36,638 bases of DNA, taken from a virus. Under the pieces are notes generated by a model. It saw only the letters and a list, made by a program, of their open reading frames with translations. It was not told the origin of the DNA and did no database searches. This document shows, piece by piece, positions 14,779-20,917 of this stretch (position 1 is its first letter; each line of letters starts with the position of its first letter). Location of the stretch: the IMG/VR virus record IMGVR_UViG_3300045988_010186, positions 1-36,638 of that record; one strand, written 5' to 3'. A program made the translations under genes and the position numbers.

Positions 14779-15036
14779 TGTAACTAACTTTTTCTCCCAA
14801 ACAATCATAGTTACGCAAAAAACATAGTGTTTTCAATGCTTTGGCGGCTTTTTGGGGTGTAACCAAAACCAAGAAACCACGTTTGTATATTATATATTTC
14901 TAAAATAAAAAATATATCTTTTTTATTTTTATAAAAAGTTAGTTACATAGTTACAAACTACATAAAAAGTAGTAAGAAATATAGTAATATCAATGCTTTG
15001 AGGGGTGTAACTAAGTGTGTAACTAAGTGTAACTAA
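14779..15036. repeat. Iteron cluster flanking an AT-rich stretch; putative replication origin
   Basis: TGTAACTAA occurs at 14779, 15006, 15018 and 15028, inverted at 14939-14947, with the variant TGTAACCAA at 14858. The longer repeat ATAGT..TCAATGCTTTG..GGGGTGTAAC occurs at 14824-14863 and 14981-15011. The core at 14881-14938 is almost pure A/T. The cluster lies directly downstream of VirE. Confidence 0.55.
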
Positions 15037-15058
15037 GTCGGCCAAAATGCCGATTTGG

Positions 15059-18508: not shown

Positions 18509-18950
18509 TTTTTACCTCCACTTCACCGAAAGCCTGCTCGAACGTCAGGCCGGTAACGGCAAGAATTTTTTTGATTTCGTCTATTTTAAGCGCACTTTTT
18601 CCTGCAAATTTTCCTCGCCATCTTTCAGTCGAGCCGGGGTTATAAACATATCCCATCATTTGCAGAAGCACGGTTGTGTTTACTCCGCTCCTATTCATCC
18701 AATCGCGCAACCCGACATAAATGCACGTTTTTTCGCCACAAAAGCGGTAATGTTTCGCATTTACTCCGGCGCAATATTGCGATACGCGCTGCTTGGTAAC
18801 GCCGAGTTCATCTGCGATTTGCTGAAATGACATACCGTTTTCGCGCATTTTAATCGCAATTTCTCTGTTTCTCGTGTATCTATAGTTCCCTTTTCTCTTT
18901 TCTTTTTTTACCTCCTCGCATCCCGTAGGTGTGCAAGATTCAAAATTCAC
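18501..18950 (-). CDS. HTH DNA-binding protein
   Basis: MSFQQIADELGVTKQRVSQY is a sigma-70 region-4 / LuxR-like HTH. Confidence 0.5.
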   Translation of the reverse strand: MNFESCTPTGCEEVKKEKRKGNYRYTRNREIAIKMRENGMSFQQIADELGVTKQRVSQYCAGVNAKHYRFCGEKTCIYVGLRDWMNRSGVNTTVLLQMMGYVYNPGSTERWRGKFAGKSALKIDEIKKILAVTGLTFEQAFGEVEVKSD

Positions 18951-19449
18951 TTTGCAATCGCTCCTTCGCTTCCCGATATAAAATATCGTGTATTAGTTTT
19001 GGTGTTGTATCTGGCTGGCAAAAAACAATATGTGCATCATATCTTGCCATCCACGCGATCAAAGACGCGATCAGGGCTTGCGGCAGCATCTTCGACCGAT
19101 ATCGTCCGGCGTATGCTTTTTCCCAGCTCGCGTTTTCGATCAGCAGATACACCCGCTCTTCTGATTGTTTCAGCCGCTCGAATTCGTTCACGAACCTCTG
19201 CCGGTTTTGGCAAAAATTCGAGCATATCTCGCTCAACGACATTTTCCGTTCAATGCAGCACGGTACGCGCCATTTTTGCTCGCCCGGAAGCACAAACATG
19301 GCAGAATAGTCACCGCTATCCAGCTTCGCGCGTGTCCACGGCACACCGAAAGCCGCCCATCTTTTGACGGCCTCCGGCGTTTCGTGTTCTCTGCTATCGA
19401 CGATTATGGTCATGGTCGATAGCGCTTTTTGCATTTCAGGTGGGTTCAT
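18940..19449 (-). CDS. ERCC4-type nuclease
   Basis: Motifs IVDSREH, SGDY and IERKMSLSE (the ERK motif). Confidence 0.7.
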   Translation of the reverse strand: MNPPEMQKALSTMTIIVDSREHETPEAVKRWAAFGVPWTRAKLDSGDYSAMFVLPGEQKWRVPCCIERKMSLSEICSNFCQNRQRFVNEFERLKQSEERVYLLIENASWEKAYAGRYRSKMLPQALIASLIAWMARYDAHIVFCQPDTTPKLIHDILYREAKERLQSEF

Positions 19450-19936
19450 TCAATGTCCCGTCGAGTTTATGGATCTCCAGAAACAGCGGGTAAAGCTCTG
19501 TCAACGTCTGATACTTGCGCTCGAAAGAATGCAGTTCTTTCATAGCCGTGTCGAGCAAGGCAGTTCTCTTTTCTGCACATGTAAGAATTTTTTGTGTGCT
19601 TTCATATCCGACCTGTTTGTCAACAGTGAAAAACGCCCTGATAGGTGTCGCATCCGGCTCTTTTTCAACCTCGTTACCGTTTTCGTCAATATCCTCGTTT
19701 TTAATCACAAGGGCGCGGATGATGTACCTCGCCTGCGATACCCGGTATTTTTCTGCCGCGATGTCGTTGTCCCACTCAAACTCGTGATGGAGCGGAGCGT
19801 CATCTGCGCGGCTCGCATCCACAAGAGCCTCGGCGGTCAAACCTCCTTTCTTTTCAAGTTCTTCGCACACCGCTCCCGCTGTCTGTGCGTCCGCTTTGAT
19901 GTGATACTTTGCTGTTTGCTTCCATTCGTAAACCAT
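19436..19936 (-). CDS. Hypothetical protein
   Basis: Start trimmed to the ATG at 19936, preceded by AAAGGAGG (MVYEWKQTAKYHIK...). Confidence 0.6.
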   Translation of the reverse strand: MVYEWKQTAKYHIKADAQTAGAVCEELEKKGGLTAEALVDASRADDAPLHHEFEWDNDIAAEKYRVSQARYIIRALVIKNEDIDENGNEVEKEPDATPIRAFFTVDKQVGYESTQKILTCAEKRTALLDTAMKELHSFERKYQTLTELYPLFLEIHKLDGTLNEPT

Positions 19937-19966
19937 TTTGTTTACCTCCTTTAATTTTTTTTGGGA

Positions 19967-20250
19967 TTGCCTGCCACGACGAGCCACGCCACGCCGCGCC
20001 CAACCAGACCTTGCCTGCCTTGCCGCACCGCGCCAAGCCTTGCCTCGCCTGCCATACCGTGCCGTACCACGCCATACCTAGCCTCGCCTGACCTTACCGC
20101 GCCTTGCCTGCCACACCAATCCTTACCGCGCCGTACCTCACCGCGCCATGCCATACCTAACCTTGCCAAACCAAACCATACCTCACCACGCCTGCCATGC
20201 CAAACCCAGCCCGGCCTTGCCATACCGCGCCTCGCCTCACCAAGCCTGCC
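19967..20250 (-). repeat. Degenerate pentanucleotide array: 58 consecutive GGY(N)N units on the minus strand (NNRCC on the plus strand)
   Basis: A gap-free hand parse gives 52 five-mers plus 6 four-mers (TGCC), totalling 284 nt. 57 of 58 units end in CC and 57 of 58 have a purine before CC. See findings. Confidence 0.9.
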
Positions 20251-20269
20251 ATGATCTATTGATCGTTAC

Positions 20270-20917
20270 TCAAGCATCAACATGGAACATACCATACTGC
20301 CCATCTCTTTCTGGACGCCATTCGCCAATCCCGCAAACATATCCGCCAGCGTTAATCATGTTTACGATGTTTTCAAGGCTGACGCTTCCGTTCGTGTTGT
20401 AGCTGATGCACAAATCAGCGTACCAGTTTCTGAACTCTCCGCGATAACGGATGTCAGCCGTGCCCATGCCGACCTTGACCATATCCTCGCGCATGATTGG
20501 CGTATCACTGTGAATCTCGATCAGGCCATTCTCGTCGCTATCGATGAAGAACATACCGCGATTTTCCATCTTGTTTTTGCTCCAACCAAGACGATATGCT
20601 GCGCTGATTGCCGCCTGTTTGATAGCAGTAACCGGGAAGCCGAACCGCGCGCCATTCTCGACGGCTTTCTGGAATCCTTCTTCGGTCGTTTCTTCCGGCA
20701 TCGGGGTAATCCAGTAAAGCGACCGGATGAAATCGTCAACCGGGTCTTTCGCTTCCTTCTTCTTGCCCTTCGCAAGCCCCATCTGTGCCTCAAGCATCAT
20801 GCGTTTTGCTTTCTCGCTCCATGCGTGGATGATGAGCGGCGTGTCACCGACAATGCGGACGTTCACCTTCTGGATTTTAATCGGCCGAATCTCGATAACC
20901 TCTGTTTTTGCTGCCAT
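20270..20917 (-). CDS. Hypothetical protein of the recombination module (215 aa)
   Basis: Long ORF with RBS AAAGGAGA. I do not recognise the family. Confidence 0.6.
   Translation of the reverse strand: MAAKTEVIEIRPIKIQKVNVRIVGDTPLIIHAWSEKAKRMMLEAQMGLAKGKKKEAKDPVDDFIRSLYWITPMPEETTEEGFQKAVENGARFGFPVTAIKQAAISAAYRLGWSKNKMENRGMFFIDSDENGLIEIHSDTPIMREDMVKVGMGTADIRYRGEFRNWYADLCISYNTNGSVSLENIVNMINAGGYVCGIGEWRPERDGQYGMFHVDA

What the first reader, a model, noticed from the sequence alone, without database searches (positions are those of the whole stretch)
19967..20250. 284-bp strand-asymmetric degenerate pentanucleotide array, (GGYNN)x58, inside the recombination module
The array fills the space between the stop of the 215-aa gene (20270) and the RBS of the next gene (19936).

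- The plus strand parses without gaps into 58 consecutive NNRCC units: 52 five-mers and 6 four-mers (TGCC).
- 57 of 58 units end in CC, and 57 of 58 have a purine before CC. On the transcribed minus strand this reads GGY(N)N.
- Only the GG(Y) phase is kept. The other positions drift, although sub-motifs recur (ACCGCGCC several times, GCCTGCC six times).
- Because 5 is not a multiple of 3, the GG visits all three codon phases. Long ORFs appear on both strands and in several frames (for example MARPGWVWHGRRGEVWFGLARLGMAWRG...). The constraint therefore looks nucleic-acid-level rather than protein-level.

No standard phage feature explains this. Possible explanations are:
- A periodic landing pad for an oligomeric ssDNA- or RNA-binding protein. 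The precedent is TRAP binding (G/U)AG triplets spaced by 2-3 nt. The neighbouring genes are a Sak4-like ATPase, an SSB-like DUF669 protein and an unknown 215-aa protein.
- Arrays of two-tetrad G-quadruplexes in the G-rich mRNA or displaced strand.
- A cluster of Chi-like G-rich motifs that attenuates AddAB/RecBCD.
- A primase or replication signal.
- A genuinely translated Arg/Gly/Trp-rich peptide.
Basis: partly seen in the sequence, partly recalled or inferred. Interest (0 to 1): 0.9.

Follow-up and report, generated by a model that had tools for sequence, protein, structure and literature searches.

The report
Phage VIPR guide-RNA repeat array
The 284-bp GGYNN repeat is the guide-RNA array of a phage VIPR system, a CRISPR-like RNA-guided DNA-silencing system first described in 2026 preprints, and the neighbouring "unknown" 215-aa gene encodes the Vipr protein that binds the repeats.

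Summary
Window 19967-20250 holds 57 GGYNN units on the transcribed minus strand, and this period-5 signal occurs nowhere else in the window.

It is not a new kind of element. The adjacent 215-aa gene (20270-20917, minus strand) is a Vipr protein:
- It matches the solved SUSP1 Vipr structure (PDB 36pp) at E=1e-5 alone and E=2.6e-45 as a family profile.
- The residues that contact GGY are conserved.
- The AlphaFold model matches only Cas7/Csm3 RAMP proteins.

Two 2026 bioRxiv preprints describe VIPR. Vipr protomers polymerise on vrRNAs made of GGY/NN pentamers. The NN dinucleotides read double-stranded DNA with one base skipped per repeat, which silences competing phages.

The six 4-nt GGCA units match the preprint's "staggered arrays". 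They split the array into five cassettes of 7-17 repeats.

Relatives support this reading:
- 42 of 44 homologous loci carry an array at the same place.
- 195 of 196 arrays are G-rich on the vipr coding strand.
- No reading frame is conserved.
- Phages whose Vipr is 97-98% identical carry quite different cassette sets.

I found no convincing natural target. vrRNA processing is inferred, not shown.

Verdict: a new member of a known, very recently described kind.

The parts
20270..20917 (-). vipr gene: a 215-aa Vipr protein, a minimal Cas7-like RAMP
   Evidence: phmmer against PDB 36pp_D (SUSP1 Vipr) gives E=1.1e-5. A family profile with this protein as first row gives E=2.6e-45 over the full length. 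H31, R159, C195, E199, W200 and R201 align with SUSP1 H17, R138, C173, D177, W178 and R179. The AF2 model has pLDDT 82, and its Foldseek PDB hits with E<=0.001 are CRISPR effector complexes, mostly type III Csm (Cas7-family backbone).
20251..20269 (-). Short leader between the vipr stop codon and the array (GTAACGATCAATAGATCAT)
   Evidence: Sequence. Relatives carry a different leader that also ends in ...TTGGCA|GGC.
19967..20250 (-). The whole vrRNA array: 57 GGYNN units on the sense strand, in a 'staggered' architecture
   Evidence: The array lies on the same strand as vipr, as do 195 of 196 arrays near Vipr genes.
20247..20250 (-). Opening GGCA punctuation unit
   Evidence: Every array of this clade begins ...GGCA|GGC.
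20193..20246 (-). Cassette 1 (54 nt, 11 units including the terminal GGCA(G)). NN guide: TT GA GA GC AT AA CG TG TT AT
   Evidence: Parsed at GGCA|GGC boundaries.
20109..20192 (-). Cassette 2 (84 nt, 17 units). It may be two cassettes fused by a T insertion at GGCAT|GGCGC (inference).
   Evidence: Internal cassette lengths in the clade peak at 44-59 nt.
20050..20108 (-). Cassette 3 (59 nt, 12 units)
20016..20049 (-). Cassette 4 (34 nt, 7 units)
19972..20015 (-). Cassette 5 (44 nt, 9 units, one of them degenerate: GTCGT)
19937..19971 (-). Conserved array terminus GGCAATCCC, then an A-run and the RBS (AAAGGAGG) of the next gene
   Evidence: The same GGCAATCC(C) + A/T-run + AAGGAGG ending is present in L169-L176.
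19436..19936 (-). 166-aa gene of unknown function (phrog_15946); candidate vipr-accessory protein (vap)
   Evidence: It always follows the array in close relatives. Homologues flank arrays in 7 other independent loci. It has no Pfam, NCBIfam, PADLOC or PDB match.
18940..19449 (-). ERCC4-type nuclease gene. It is the next gene in the operon; any link to VIPR is uncertain.
   Evidence: Pfam PF02732 at E=1.4e-12 and phrog_3490. It is conserved after the 166-aa gene in relatives.

Best explanation
The array is the guide-RNA (vrRNA) locus of a phage-encoded VIPR (Viral Interference Programmable Repeat) system. The 215-aa gene immediately upstream is its Vipr effector.

Shown here:
- The gene is a Vipr/Cas7-like RAMP with the GGY-binding residues conserved.
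- The array is a sense-strand GGY/NN repeat.
- Gene and array co-occur with fixed polarity across very distant phages.
- The array is built of GGCA|GGC-delimited cassettes that turn over much faster than the flanking genes.

Taken from the preprints, for the type II systems of SUSP1 and P. fulva:
- One Vipr protomer binds each pentamer.
- It flips out and holds G1, G2 and Y3, and presents N4N5.
- The NN dinucleotides pair with double-stranded DNA, skipping one target base per repeat.
- The resulting R-loop triplex represses transcription of competing phages, satellites or prophages.

Inferred for this window:
- The array is co-transcribed with vipr in the replication/recombination operon.
- It is cut or partitioned at the 4-nt GGCA units, where two pentamers overlap by one G. 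This would give five vrRNAs of 11, 17, 12, 7 and 9 repeats.
- Each vrRNA directs a Vipr filament to a 3-nt-periodic DNA site in a rival mobile element.
- The 4-nt unit probably ends one filament because it breaks the 5-nt register.
For: Protein identity:
- The 215-aa protein alone matches PDB 36pp_D (SUSP1 Vipr) at E=1.1e-5.
- A profile of 31 array-adjacent proteins, with the window protein first, matches it at E=2.6e-45 over residues 2-188 of 202.
- H31, R159, C195, E199, W200 and R201 align with SUSP1 H17, R138, C173, D177, W178 and R179. The cryo-EM preprint names these as the contacts for G1, G2 and Y3.
- The AF2 model has pLDDT 82 and pTM 0.77. All 27 Foldseek PDB hits with E<=0.001 are CRISPR effector-complex entries, mostly type III Csm (Cas7-family backbone) plus type VII.

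RNA locus:
- GGY is present in 56-57 of 57 units, and NN uses all four bases.
- This matches the preprints' definition of a vrRNA.

Linkage of array and gene:
- 42 of 44 loci with homologues at 41-85% identity have an array directly downstream.
- A blind DNA-pattern scan of IMG/VR returned at least 120 stretches, and 72 of them encode a Vipr homologue in the stored flank.
- 195 arrays are G-rich on the vipr coding strand, against 1 on the opposite strand.

Staggered architecture:
- All six 4-mers are GGCA.
- Internal cassette lengths in the clade peak at 44, 49, 54 and 59 nt, which is 9-12 repeats.
- The preprint's fig. S18 legend describes vrRNAs that overlap by 1 nt.

Guide-like evolution:
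- Phages with 97-98% identical Vipr (88-90% DNA identity) have intergenic gaps of 102-542 nt holding 1-9 cassettes.
- 16 of 54 cassettes recur in another phage, some at a different position in the array. None is shared with the window.

Not coding:
- None of 53 arrays has a longer open frame than unit-shuffled controls (median p 0.68).
- Only 32% of arrays are fully open in any frame.
Against: - No convincing natural target was found with the 1-nt-skip rule. Local searches gave noise equal to the 0- and 2-nt-skip controls. Exact-pattern scans of the viral, genome and metagenome collections gave zero or chance-level hits, with the skipped base not at the wobble position.
- There is no conserved 3' tail or pseudoknot between cassettes, unlike the characterised type II systems.
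- The preprint says only the ribozyme-interspersed and single-vrRNA architectures were confirmed by sRNA-seq. Staggered arrays were not.
- Cassette 2 (17 units) is longer than the 9-16 range. Cassette 4 (7 units) is shorter. Cassette 5 contains a degenerate unit.
- D177 is replaced by E.
- Transcription, processing and RNP formation are untested here.
- The mechanism rests on two un-refereed preprints.
Confidence: 0.9

Rival explanations
1. The array is a VIPR-type array, but here it is inert or works differently from the type II systems. It might be a decaying remnant, might target RNA rather than dsDNA, or might regulate the downstream gene or the phage's own genes rather than rival elements.
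For: No natural target was found. One unit is degenerate, one cassette looks fused and one is short. The cryo-EM preprint shows that Vipr-vrRNA can also pair with ssRNA. The array abuts the RBS of the next gene.
Against: GGY is intact in 56-57 of 57 units. Vipr is under strong purifying selection: 88-90% DNA identity against 97-98% protein identity. Arrays are maintained across 42 of 44 relatives. The preprint reports no self-targeting, and none was seen here.
Confidence: 0.07
2. The array encodes a translated Gly/Arg/Trp-rich low-complexity peptide (the 90-aa ORF 19951-20223, minus strand).
For: One frame is open across 273 of the 284 nt. It has an ATG, a GAGG 6 nt upstream, and a stop codon that overlaps the next RBS. 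GenBank annotators have called ORFs across equivalent arrays in Mycobacterium phages.
Against: Open frames are no longer than in unit-shuffled arrays (0 of 53 at p<=0.05). Many relatives have stops in all three frames (for example L126, L128, L129, L149, L150). Cassette lengths are 5n-1, so the frame shifts at every boundary. Cassette content is unrelated between near-identical phages. No Pfam or PHROG match.
Confidence: 0.01
3. The array is a DNA- or RNA-structure element that works independently of any guide function: two-tetrad G-quadruplexes, an R-loop origin, a Chi-like cluster, a primase signal, or a Rho-loading site on the antisense transcript.
For: GC skew is extreme, about -0.49 on the plus strand. 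GG recurs every 5 nt. The locus lies in a replication/recombination operon.
Against: None of these ideas explains the strict pyrimidine at position 3, the GGCA punctuation, the 44-59-nt cassette modules, or the near-obligate linkage and shared polarity with a Cas7-like RAMP gene across phages with unrelated gene contexts. There is no Rfam hit.
Confidence: 0.02

Closest known systems
Type II VIPR systems of Escherichia phage SUSP1 and a Pseudomonas fulva prophage (bioRxiv 10.64898/2026.04.26.720920 and 10.64898/2026.04.26.720927; PDB 36pp)
   Same: A ~20-kDa single-RRM RAMP with the same G-loop motif (CG.G[DE]WRP) and the same H and R contacts. The guide locus is made of GGY/NN pentamers on the same strand as vipr. 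The system is phage-encoded, and a small accessory gene lies next to it.
   Different: Here the repeats form one uninterrupted 284-nt array punctuated by 4-nt GGCA units. SUSP1 has separate ~100-nt vrRNAs, each ending in a conserved 3' tail or pseudoknot. Sequence identity to SUSP1 Vipr is low (a single-sequence match over only about 60 residues). D177 is E. Targets are unknown.
'Staggered vrRNA arrays' of VIPR (fig. S18 of the first preprint)
   Same: Adjacent vrRNAs overlap by 1 nt, so the end of one marks the start of the next. This is exactly what a GGCA|GGC tetramer is (GGCAG and GGC.. share a G).
   Different: Only the figure legend could be read, so the VIPR type (I-VII) and the example locus could not be compared. 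The preprint does not report experimental confirmation of this architecture.
Class 1 CRISPR-Cas backbone (Cas7/Csm3 filament on crRNA)
   Same: The same fold (all Foldseek hits with E<=0.001). Subunits polymerise along a guide RNA, and a thumb periodically interrupts base pairing.
   Different: There is no CRISPR repeat-spacer array and no large, small, Cas5, Cas6 or Cas1-2 subunit genes nearby. The periodicity is 5 nt with 3 nt sequestered, not 6 nt with 1 flipped. The guide is non-contiguous.
TRAP binding to (G/U)AG triplets in the trp leader
   Same: An oligomeric protein reads a triplet repeated with 2-nt spacers on single-stranded RNA.
   Different: The fold is unrelated. TRAP forms a closed ring and VIPR an open helical filament. 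In TRAP the spacers carry no information; here they are the guide.

Membership tests
VIPR system (Vipr + vrRNA) | Vipr protein: a small (~20 kDa) stand-alone RAMP with an RRM core, glycine-rich loop and thumb | tested here: met
   Length 215 aa. The PDB 36pp SUSP1 Vipr is the only PDB match to the protein alone (E=1.1e-5), and the family profile matches it at E=2.6e-45 over the full length. The AF2 model has pLDDT 82, and its top Foldseek hits are all Csm3/Cas7 RAMPs.
VIPR system (Vipr + vrRNA) | Residues that hold G1, G2 and Y3 (SUSP1 H17, R138, D177, W178, R179, C173) | tested here: met
   The window protein has H31, R159, E199 (a conservative D->E change), W200, R201 and C195 at the aligned positions. 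R159, W165, G196 and R201 are invariant in the 31-sequence alignment.
VIPR system (Vipr + vrRNA) | Tandem pentamers next to vipr, with GGY conserved and NN hypervariable | tested here: met
   G1 57/57, G2 56/57, Y3 56/57, with N4 and N5 using all four bases. The array starts 19 nt after the vipr stop codon. 42 of 44 homologous loci have one. Polarity is 195:1.
VIPR system (Vipr + vrRNA) | Individual vrRNAs of about 9-16 repeats | tested here: inconclusive
   GGCA|GGC boundaries give 11, 17, 12, 7 and 9 units here. The clade mode is 9-12 units (44-59 nt). The boundaries are inferred from comparative modularity, not from RNA ends.
VIPR system (Vipr + vrRNA) | vrRNAs are expressed, processed and bound by Vipr | not testable with these tools
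   This needs sRNA-seq or RNP pull-down. Only sense orientation within the operon, and the lack of a terminator between vipr and the array, could be shown.
VIPR system (Vipr + vrRNA) | NN dinucleotides match DNA of competing mobile elements under the 1-nt-skip rule (>=80% NN match) | tested here: inconclusive
   There are no targets in the 2.7 million positions (both strands) held locally, and hit counts equal those for the 0- and 2-nt skips. Exact-pattern scans gave 0-3 hits, close to chance expectation, in unrelated genes (Rieske protein, miaA, terminase, non-coding DNA) and with the wrong codon phase. Mismatch-tolerant searching of the collections was not possible.
VIPR system (Vipr + vrRNA) | Adjacent vipr-accessory (vap) gene | tested here: inconclusive
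   A conserved 166-aa gene always follows the array, and its homologues flank arrays in 7 other loci. It matches no known family.
VIPR type II (SUSP1-like) architecture | Each vrRNA ends in an invariant structured 3' tail or pseudoknot | tested here: not met
   Cassettes abut directly, with only the GGCA overlap between them. The only constant flank is GGCAATCCC at the array end. The locus is therefore not type II, but it fits the 'staggered' architecture.
CRISPR-Cas (class 1) | A CRISPR array of >=20-nt direct repeats with unique spacers, plus cas operon genes | tested here: not met
   Tandem Repeats Finder finds only period 10-39 sub-patterns of the pentamer array. The neighbouring genes are Sak4, an ERCC4 nuclease, an HTH protein and unknowns. 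There are no PADLOC hits.
Low-complexity protein-coding gene | One reading frame conserved among homologues | tested here: not met
Rfam RNA families | A match at the gathering threshold | tested here: not met
   No hits in the whole window.

The most novel reading that the evidence does not exclude
In this 'staggered' class the 4-nt GGCA unit may itself be the punctuation mark. By breaking the 5-nt register it would end one Vipr filament and start the next, so the array would be partitioned into guides without a tail, a ribozyme or a Cas6-like nuclease.

The GGCA|GGC-delimited cassettes also behave as exchangeable modules. Phages whose Vipr is 97-98% identical carry 1-9 largely different cassettes. 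This implies either an active route for guide gain and loss, or very fast recombinational shuffling: a spacer-like memory in a virus that has no Cas1-Cas2.
Probability: 0.3. Interest if true: 0.7.

Novelty: new member of a known kind. Interest (0 to 1): 0.45.

Why it matters
The finding independently rediscovers, from raw sequence, a system that was published only as preprints in April-June 2026. It also assigns a function to a gene family (phrog_4652) that Pfam, NCBIfam, PADLOC and PHROGs still list as unknown.

What it adds beyond the preprints as I could read them:
- Comparative evidence that GGCA|GGC-bounded cassettes are the evolutionary units of staggered arrays. This is the architecture the preprint did not confirm experimentally.
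- A measure of how fast the guide repertoire turns over relative to vipr.
- The observation that the well-studied, genetically tractable Cluster F mycobacteriophages carry the same gene and array pair, currently mis-annotated. The main text of the discovery preprint does not mention mycobacteria.

It does not open a new category.

Tried and rejected
- Rfam at gathering threshold on the whole window: nothing.
- Megablast of 24 kb of the window against INPHARED phages: no match.
- The 12-bp tetrapeptide repeat of Tweety gp54 in Cluster F phages (PMC2884959): read and rejected as a different element.
- Literature searches for 'pentanucleotide repeat': nothing relevant.
- Crude ORF-based orientation calls were noisy in high-GC contigs. 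I replaced them with orientation relative to the Vipr gene.
- Before the PDB hit I considered R-loop origin, G-quadruplex, RNA polymerase pause array, antisense rut site, Chi cluster, decoy restriction sites and pentapeptide-repeat protein. All were dropped once the link to Vipr was clear.
- The first AlphaFold run, on a shallow alignment (82% identity or more), failed with pLDDT 38. A more diverse alignment worked.
- Target searches were inconclusive. The hits were:
  - local 0/1/2/3-nt-skip scans, where only the trivial 3-nt-skip self-match appeared;
  - exact 1-nt-skip patterns for cassettes 1, 2 and 3 and for three clade-conserved cassettes in the viral, genome and metagenome collections;
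  - L178, a non-coding, eukaryote-like contig;
  - L179, an acidic phage protein, 28/34, with the skip at codon position 1;
  - L180, a chromosomal Rieske-type gene;
  - L181, miaA of a Nanopelagicales MAG, 22/22;
  - L182;
  - L183, a terminase, with the skip at codon position 2;
  - L184.
  I judged all of these to be chance.
- The 166-aa downstream protein could not be identified with Pfam, NCBIfam, PADLOC or PDB, alone or as a profile.
- The preprint's supplementary tables (type assignments, vap sequences) are not held.

Full report
**1. The observation**

Plus-strand 19967-20250 parses into 57 units ending in CC:
- 50 pentamers;
- six tetramers, all TGCC;
- one decamer that hides a single degenerate unit.

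CC autocorrelation is 50 at lag 5 and close to zero at non-multiples of 5. The period-5 power is about 60 times the window median, and nothing else in the 36.6-kb window comes close.

Read on the minus strand the unit is GGYNN: G1 57/57, G2 56/57, Y3 56/57, with all four bases at N4 and N5. All flanking genes lie on the minus strand. GC skew reaches -0.49.

**2. It is not a local oddity**

A distant BLASTN of the region against GenBank phages matched only through the array itself. The hits were Mycobacterium Cluster F phages (Cheoctovirus). They carry 150-350-bp (NNGCC)n arrays in an intergenic gap of the early lytic operon. The G-rich strand is again the sense strand, and the 4-nt variant is again TGCC.

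Most are degenerate arrays of 75-730 bp, and contigs often carry several.

**3. It is not translated**

I collected 44 IMG/VR loci that encode homologues (41-85% identity) of the upstream 215-aa protein. Of these, 42 carry a sense-strand GG-phased array immediately downstream, 60 to more than 1,100 nt long.

The longest stop-free stretch in each array is no longer than in arrays whose units were shuffled:
- 0 of 53 arrays reach p<=0.05, and the median p is 0.68;
- only 32% of arrays are open in any frame.

The 90-aa ORF in the window is therefore a by-product of a G-rich 5-nt period.

**4. The partner gene**

I clustered the sense-strand ORFs that flank the arrays found by DNA pattern alone. 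One dominant family of about 200 aa appeared in 49 loci. An iterated local HMM seeded with the window's 215-aa protein recovers it in:
- 72 of the 120 pattern-found loci;
- all four Mycobacterium phage loci, where it is the gene just downstream of the array.

Mattes gp52 aligns to the family profile with hhalign probability 99.9 and E=5e-37.

Pfam, NCBIfam and PADLOC have no model for the family, and PHROGs lists it as phrog_4652, function unknown.

The PDB does have a relative. The window protein matches 36pp chain D, 'SUSP1 Vipr protein', at E=1.1e-5. A 31-sequence profile with the window protein as first row matches it at E=2.6e-45 over residues 2-188 of 202.

A first AlphaFold run on a shallow alignment failed, with pLDDT 38. 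A more diverse alignment gave pLDDT 82 and pTM 0.77. The Foldseek PDB library used stops at 8 April 2026. In it, all 27 hits with E<=0.001 are CRISPR effector-complex entries, mostly type III Csm with some type VII, so the model matches Cas7-family RAMPs.

**5. What is known about Vipr**

[quoted passage not shown] Their main points are as follows.
- Vipr is a minimal RAMP of about 20 kDa that is mostly virus-encoded.
- vrRNAs consist of 9-16 YNNGG repeats. GGY is conserved and NN is hypervariable.
- One protomer binds per repeat in a right-handed filament.
- G1 is read by H17 and D177, G2 by R138 and W178, and Y3 sits in a pocket (R179, C173) that excludes purines.
- The NN dinucleotides pair with double-stranded DNA and skip one target base per repeat, usually the codon wobble base. 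This forms an R-loop triplex that silences transcription.
- Natural guides target satellites and prophages.
- Seven types exist. Array architectures include 'staggered arrays', whose vrRNAs overlap by 1 nt (fig. S18). The preprint reports sRNA-seq confirmation only for the ribozyme-interspersed and single-vrRNA architectures.

**6. Membership of this locus**

The window protein has H31, R159, C195, E199, W200 and R201 at the positions of SUSP1 H17, R138, C173, D177, W178 and R179. The strict pyrimidine at position 3 and the exact GG are what those pockets require. Arrays near Vipr genes are G-rich on the vipr coding strand 195 times and on the other strand once.

The six tetramers are explained by the staggered architecture. 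GGCA|GGC is two pentamers (GGCAG and GGC..) sharing one G. Splitting there gives cassettes of 54, 84, 59, 34 and 44 nt, which is 11, 17, 12, 7 and 9 units.

**7. Comparative support for cassettes as units**

Nine contigs encode a Vipr that is 97-98% identical to the window's (P0002, P0004). In the eight of them that reach the next gene:
- the distance from vipr to the next gene ranges from 102 to 542 nt;
- every array starts ...TTGGCA|GGC and ends GGCA|GGCAATCC + A-run + RBS;
- each array is a string of 1-9 GGCA|GGC-bounded segments.

Internal segment lengths across the clade peak at 44, 49, 54 and 59 nt. The vipr DNA is 88-90% identical to the window's and the downstream gene 80-83%. None of the window's cassettes recurs in these phages. 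Only 16 of 54 cassettes have a relative at 85% identity or more in another phage, and some of these sit at a different position in the array. In shared cassettes, differences at the Y position leave the NN string unchanged. This is how a guide repertoire should behave, not a structural repeat.

Cassette 2 may be two cassettes fused by a T insertion (GGCAT|GGCGC). That is my inference.

**8. What I could not show**

*Targets.* I replaced each GGY with one wildcard. The five guides and 63 clade cassettes then gave no match in the 2.7 million positions held locally beyond what the 0- and 2-nt-skip controls gave. No self-target appeared in the window.

The public collections accept only exact patterns. 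Cassettes 1, 2 (first 10 units) and 3, plus three clade-conserved cassettes, gave zero to three hits each. That is near the chance expectation for 18-22 specified bases. The hits fell in unrelated places:
- a non-coding, eukaryote-like contig;
- a chromosomal Rieske gene;
- miaA of a freshwater actinobacterium;
- an acidic phage protein;
- a terminase.

In these hits the skipped base never fell at the wobble position. I regard them as chance.

*Expression and processing.* These cannot be tested here. There is no convincing promoter or terminator between vipr and the array, which is consistent with co-transcription.

*The accessory gene.* The 166-aa gene downstream (phrog_15946) always follows the array, and its homologues flank arrays in seven other independent loci. 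It matches nothing known. It is a candidate vap. The vap sequences and type tables of the preprint are not held, so I cannot assign a VIPR type.

**9. Verdict**

The array is the vrRNA locus of a VIPR system, and 20270-20917 is its Vipr gene (confidence 0.9).
- The peptide option is contradicted by the data. The G-quadruplex, Chi and primase options have no support.
- The position inside a recombination module is incidental.

The kind is already described, although only months ago and only in preprints, so this is a new member of a known kind. Three residual points of interest remain:
- the comparative evidence for GGCA-punctuated cassettes in the architecture the preprint left unconfirmed;
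- the very fast cassette turnover;
- the presence of the system in Cluster F mycobacteriophages.

Noticed in passing
L001 2997-3249 (Mycobacterium phage Mattes); L002 2979-3229 (Quico); L003 1478-1824 (Donkeykong); L004 1445-1638 (ByChance): Cluster F mycobacteriophages (Cheoctovirus) carry a VIPR locus in the early lytic region, after cro and the antirepressor and before xis. The array (39-69 units) lies upstream of the Vipr homologue (Mattes gp52, Quico gp57, Donkeykong gp49, ByChance gp40), separated by a ~140-nt C/A-rich spacer. The main text of the discovery preprint contains no word beginning 'Mycobacteri'.
   Followed up: partly
L003 1453-1839 (Donkeykong gp48); L004 1495-1653 (ByChance gp39); L001 2259-3005 (Mattes gp52): The GenBank annotations are inconsistent over these arrays. 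Hypothetical proteins are called straight through the repeat in some phages and not in others. The annotated start of Mattes gp52 looks about 49 codons too far upstream: the Vipr homology begins at MADNEKLI, which is where Quico's annotation starts.
   Followed up: partly
L150/L151 3684-4795; L153 2684-2870, 3657-4024, 5322-5480; L154 1017-1266, 1487-1574, 3651-3823, 4531-4707: Some relatives carry arrays totalling about 1.1 kb. Others carry three or four arrays in separate intergenic gaps of the same operon, so guide loci are not restricted to the gap next to vipr.
   Followed up: no
window 19436-19936 (-): The 166-aa protein (phrog_15946) has a conserved LH..FEWD...AA...R..QAR motif. It is found next to arrays in seven other independent IMG/VR loci (L036, L039, L044, L069, L092, L094, L096). 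It has no Pfam, NCBIfam, PADLOC or PDB relative. It is a candidate VIPR accessory protein.
   Followed up: partly
window 20270-20917 compared with L169-L176: The vipr genes are 88-90% identical in DNA but 97-98% identical in protein, which indicates strong purifying selection. Meanwhile the adjacent array shares no cassette with the window.
   Followed up: yes
window 20109-20192 (-): The 84-nt cassette contains GGTATGGCATGGCGC where relatives have the boundary GGTATGGCA|GGCGC. A single-base insertion may have fused two guides into one 17-unit guide.
   Followed up: no
It matches only phrog_18107, function unknown.
   Followed up: no
window 14940-15038: There are two small tandem repeats (TAGTTACA x2 and GTGTAACTAAGT x3, partly reverse-complementary to each other). 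They could be an operator or an origin-like site.
   Followed up: no
L013 6916-6986, L106 1416-1492, L077 4-95, L116 6672-6748, L110 5150-5396: A few of the IMG/VR pattern hits are true microsatellites ((ATTCC)n, (AATCC)n, (TTGCC)n, or a 10-mer repeat). Others are homopolymer runs (L118, L124, L047). None of these nine loci has a Vipr homologue. They are unrelated to VIPR arrays and would contaminate any naive pattern-based census.
   Followed up: no
L169 6179-8648 (operon of a close relative): Downstream of the VIPR locus the relatives encode a dGTP diphosphohydrolase-like domain, an HTH protein, ThyX, a DnaG-type zinc ribbon and a VapE-like primase/helicase. The VIPR locus therefore sits in the middle of the replication operon.
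   Followed up: no
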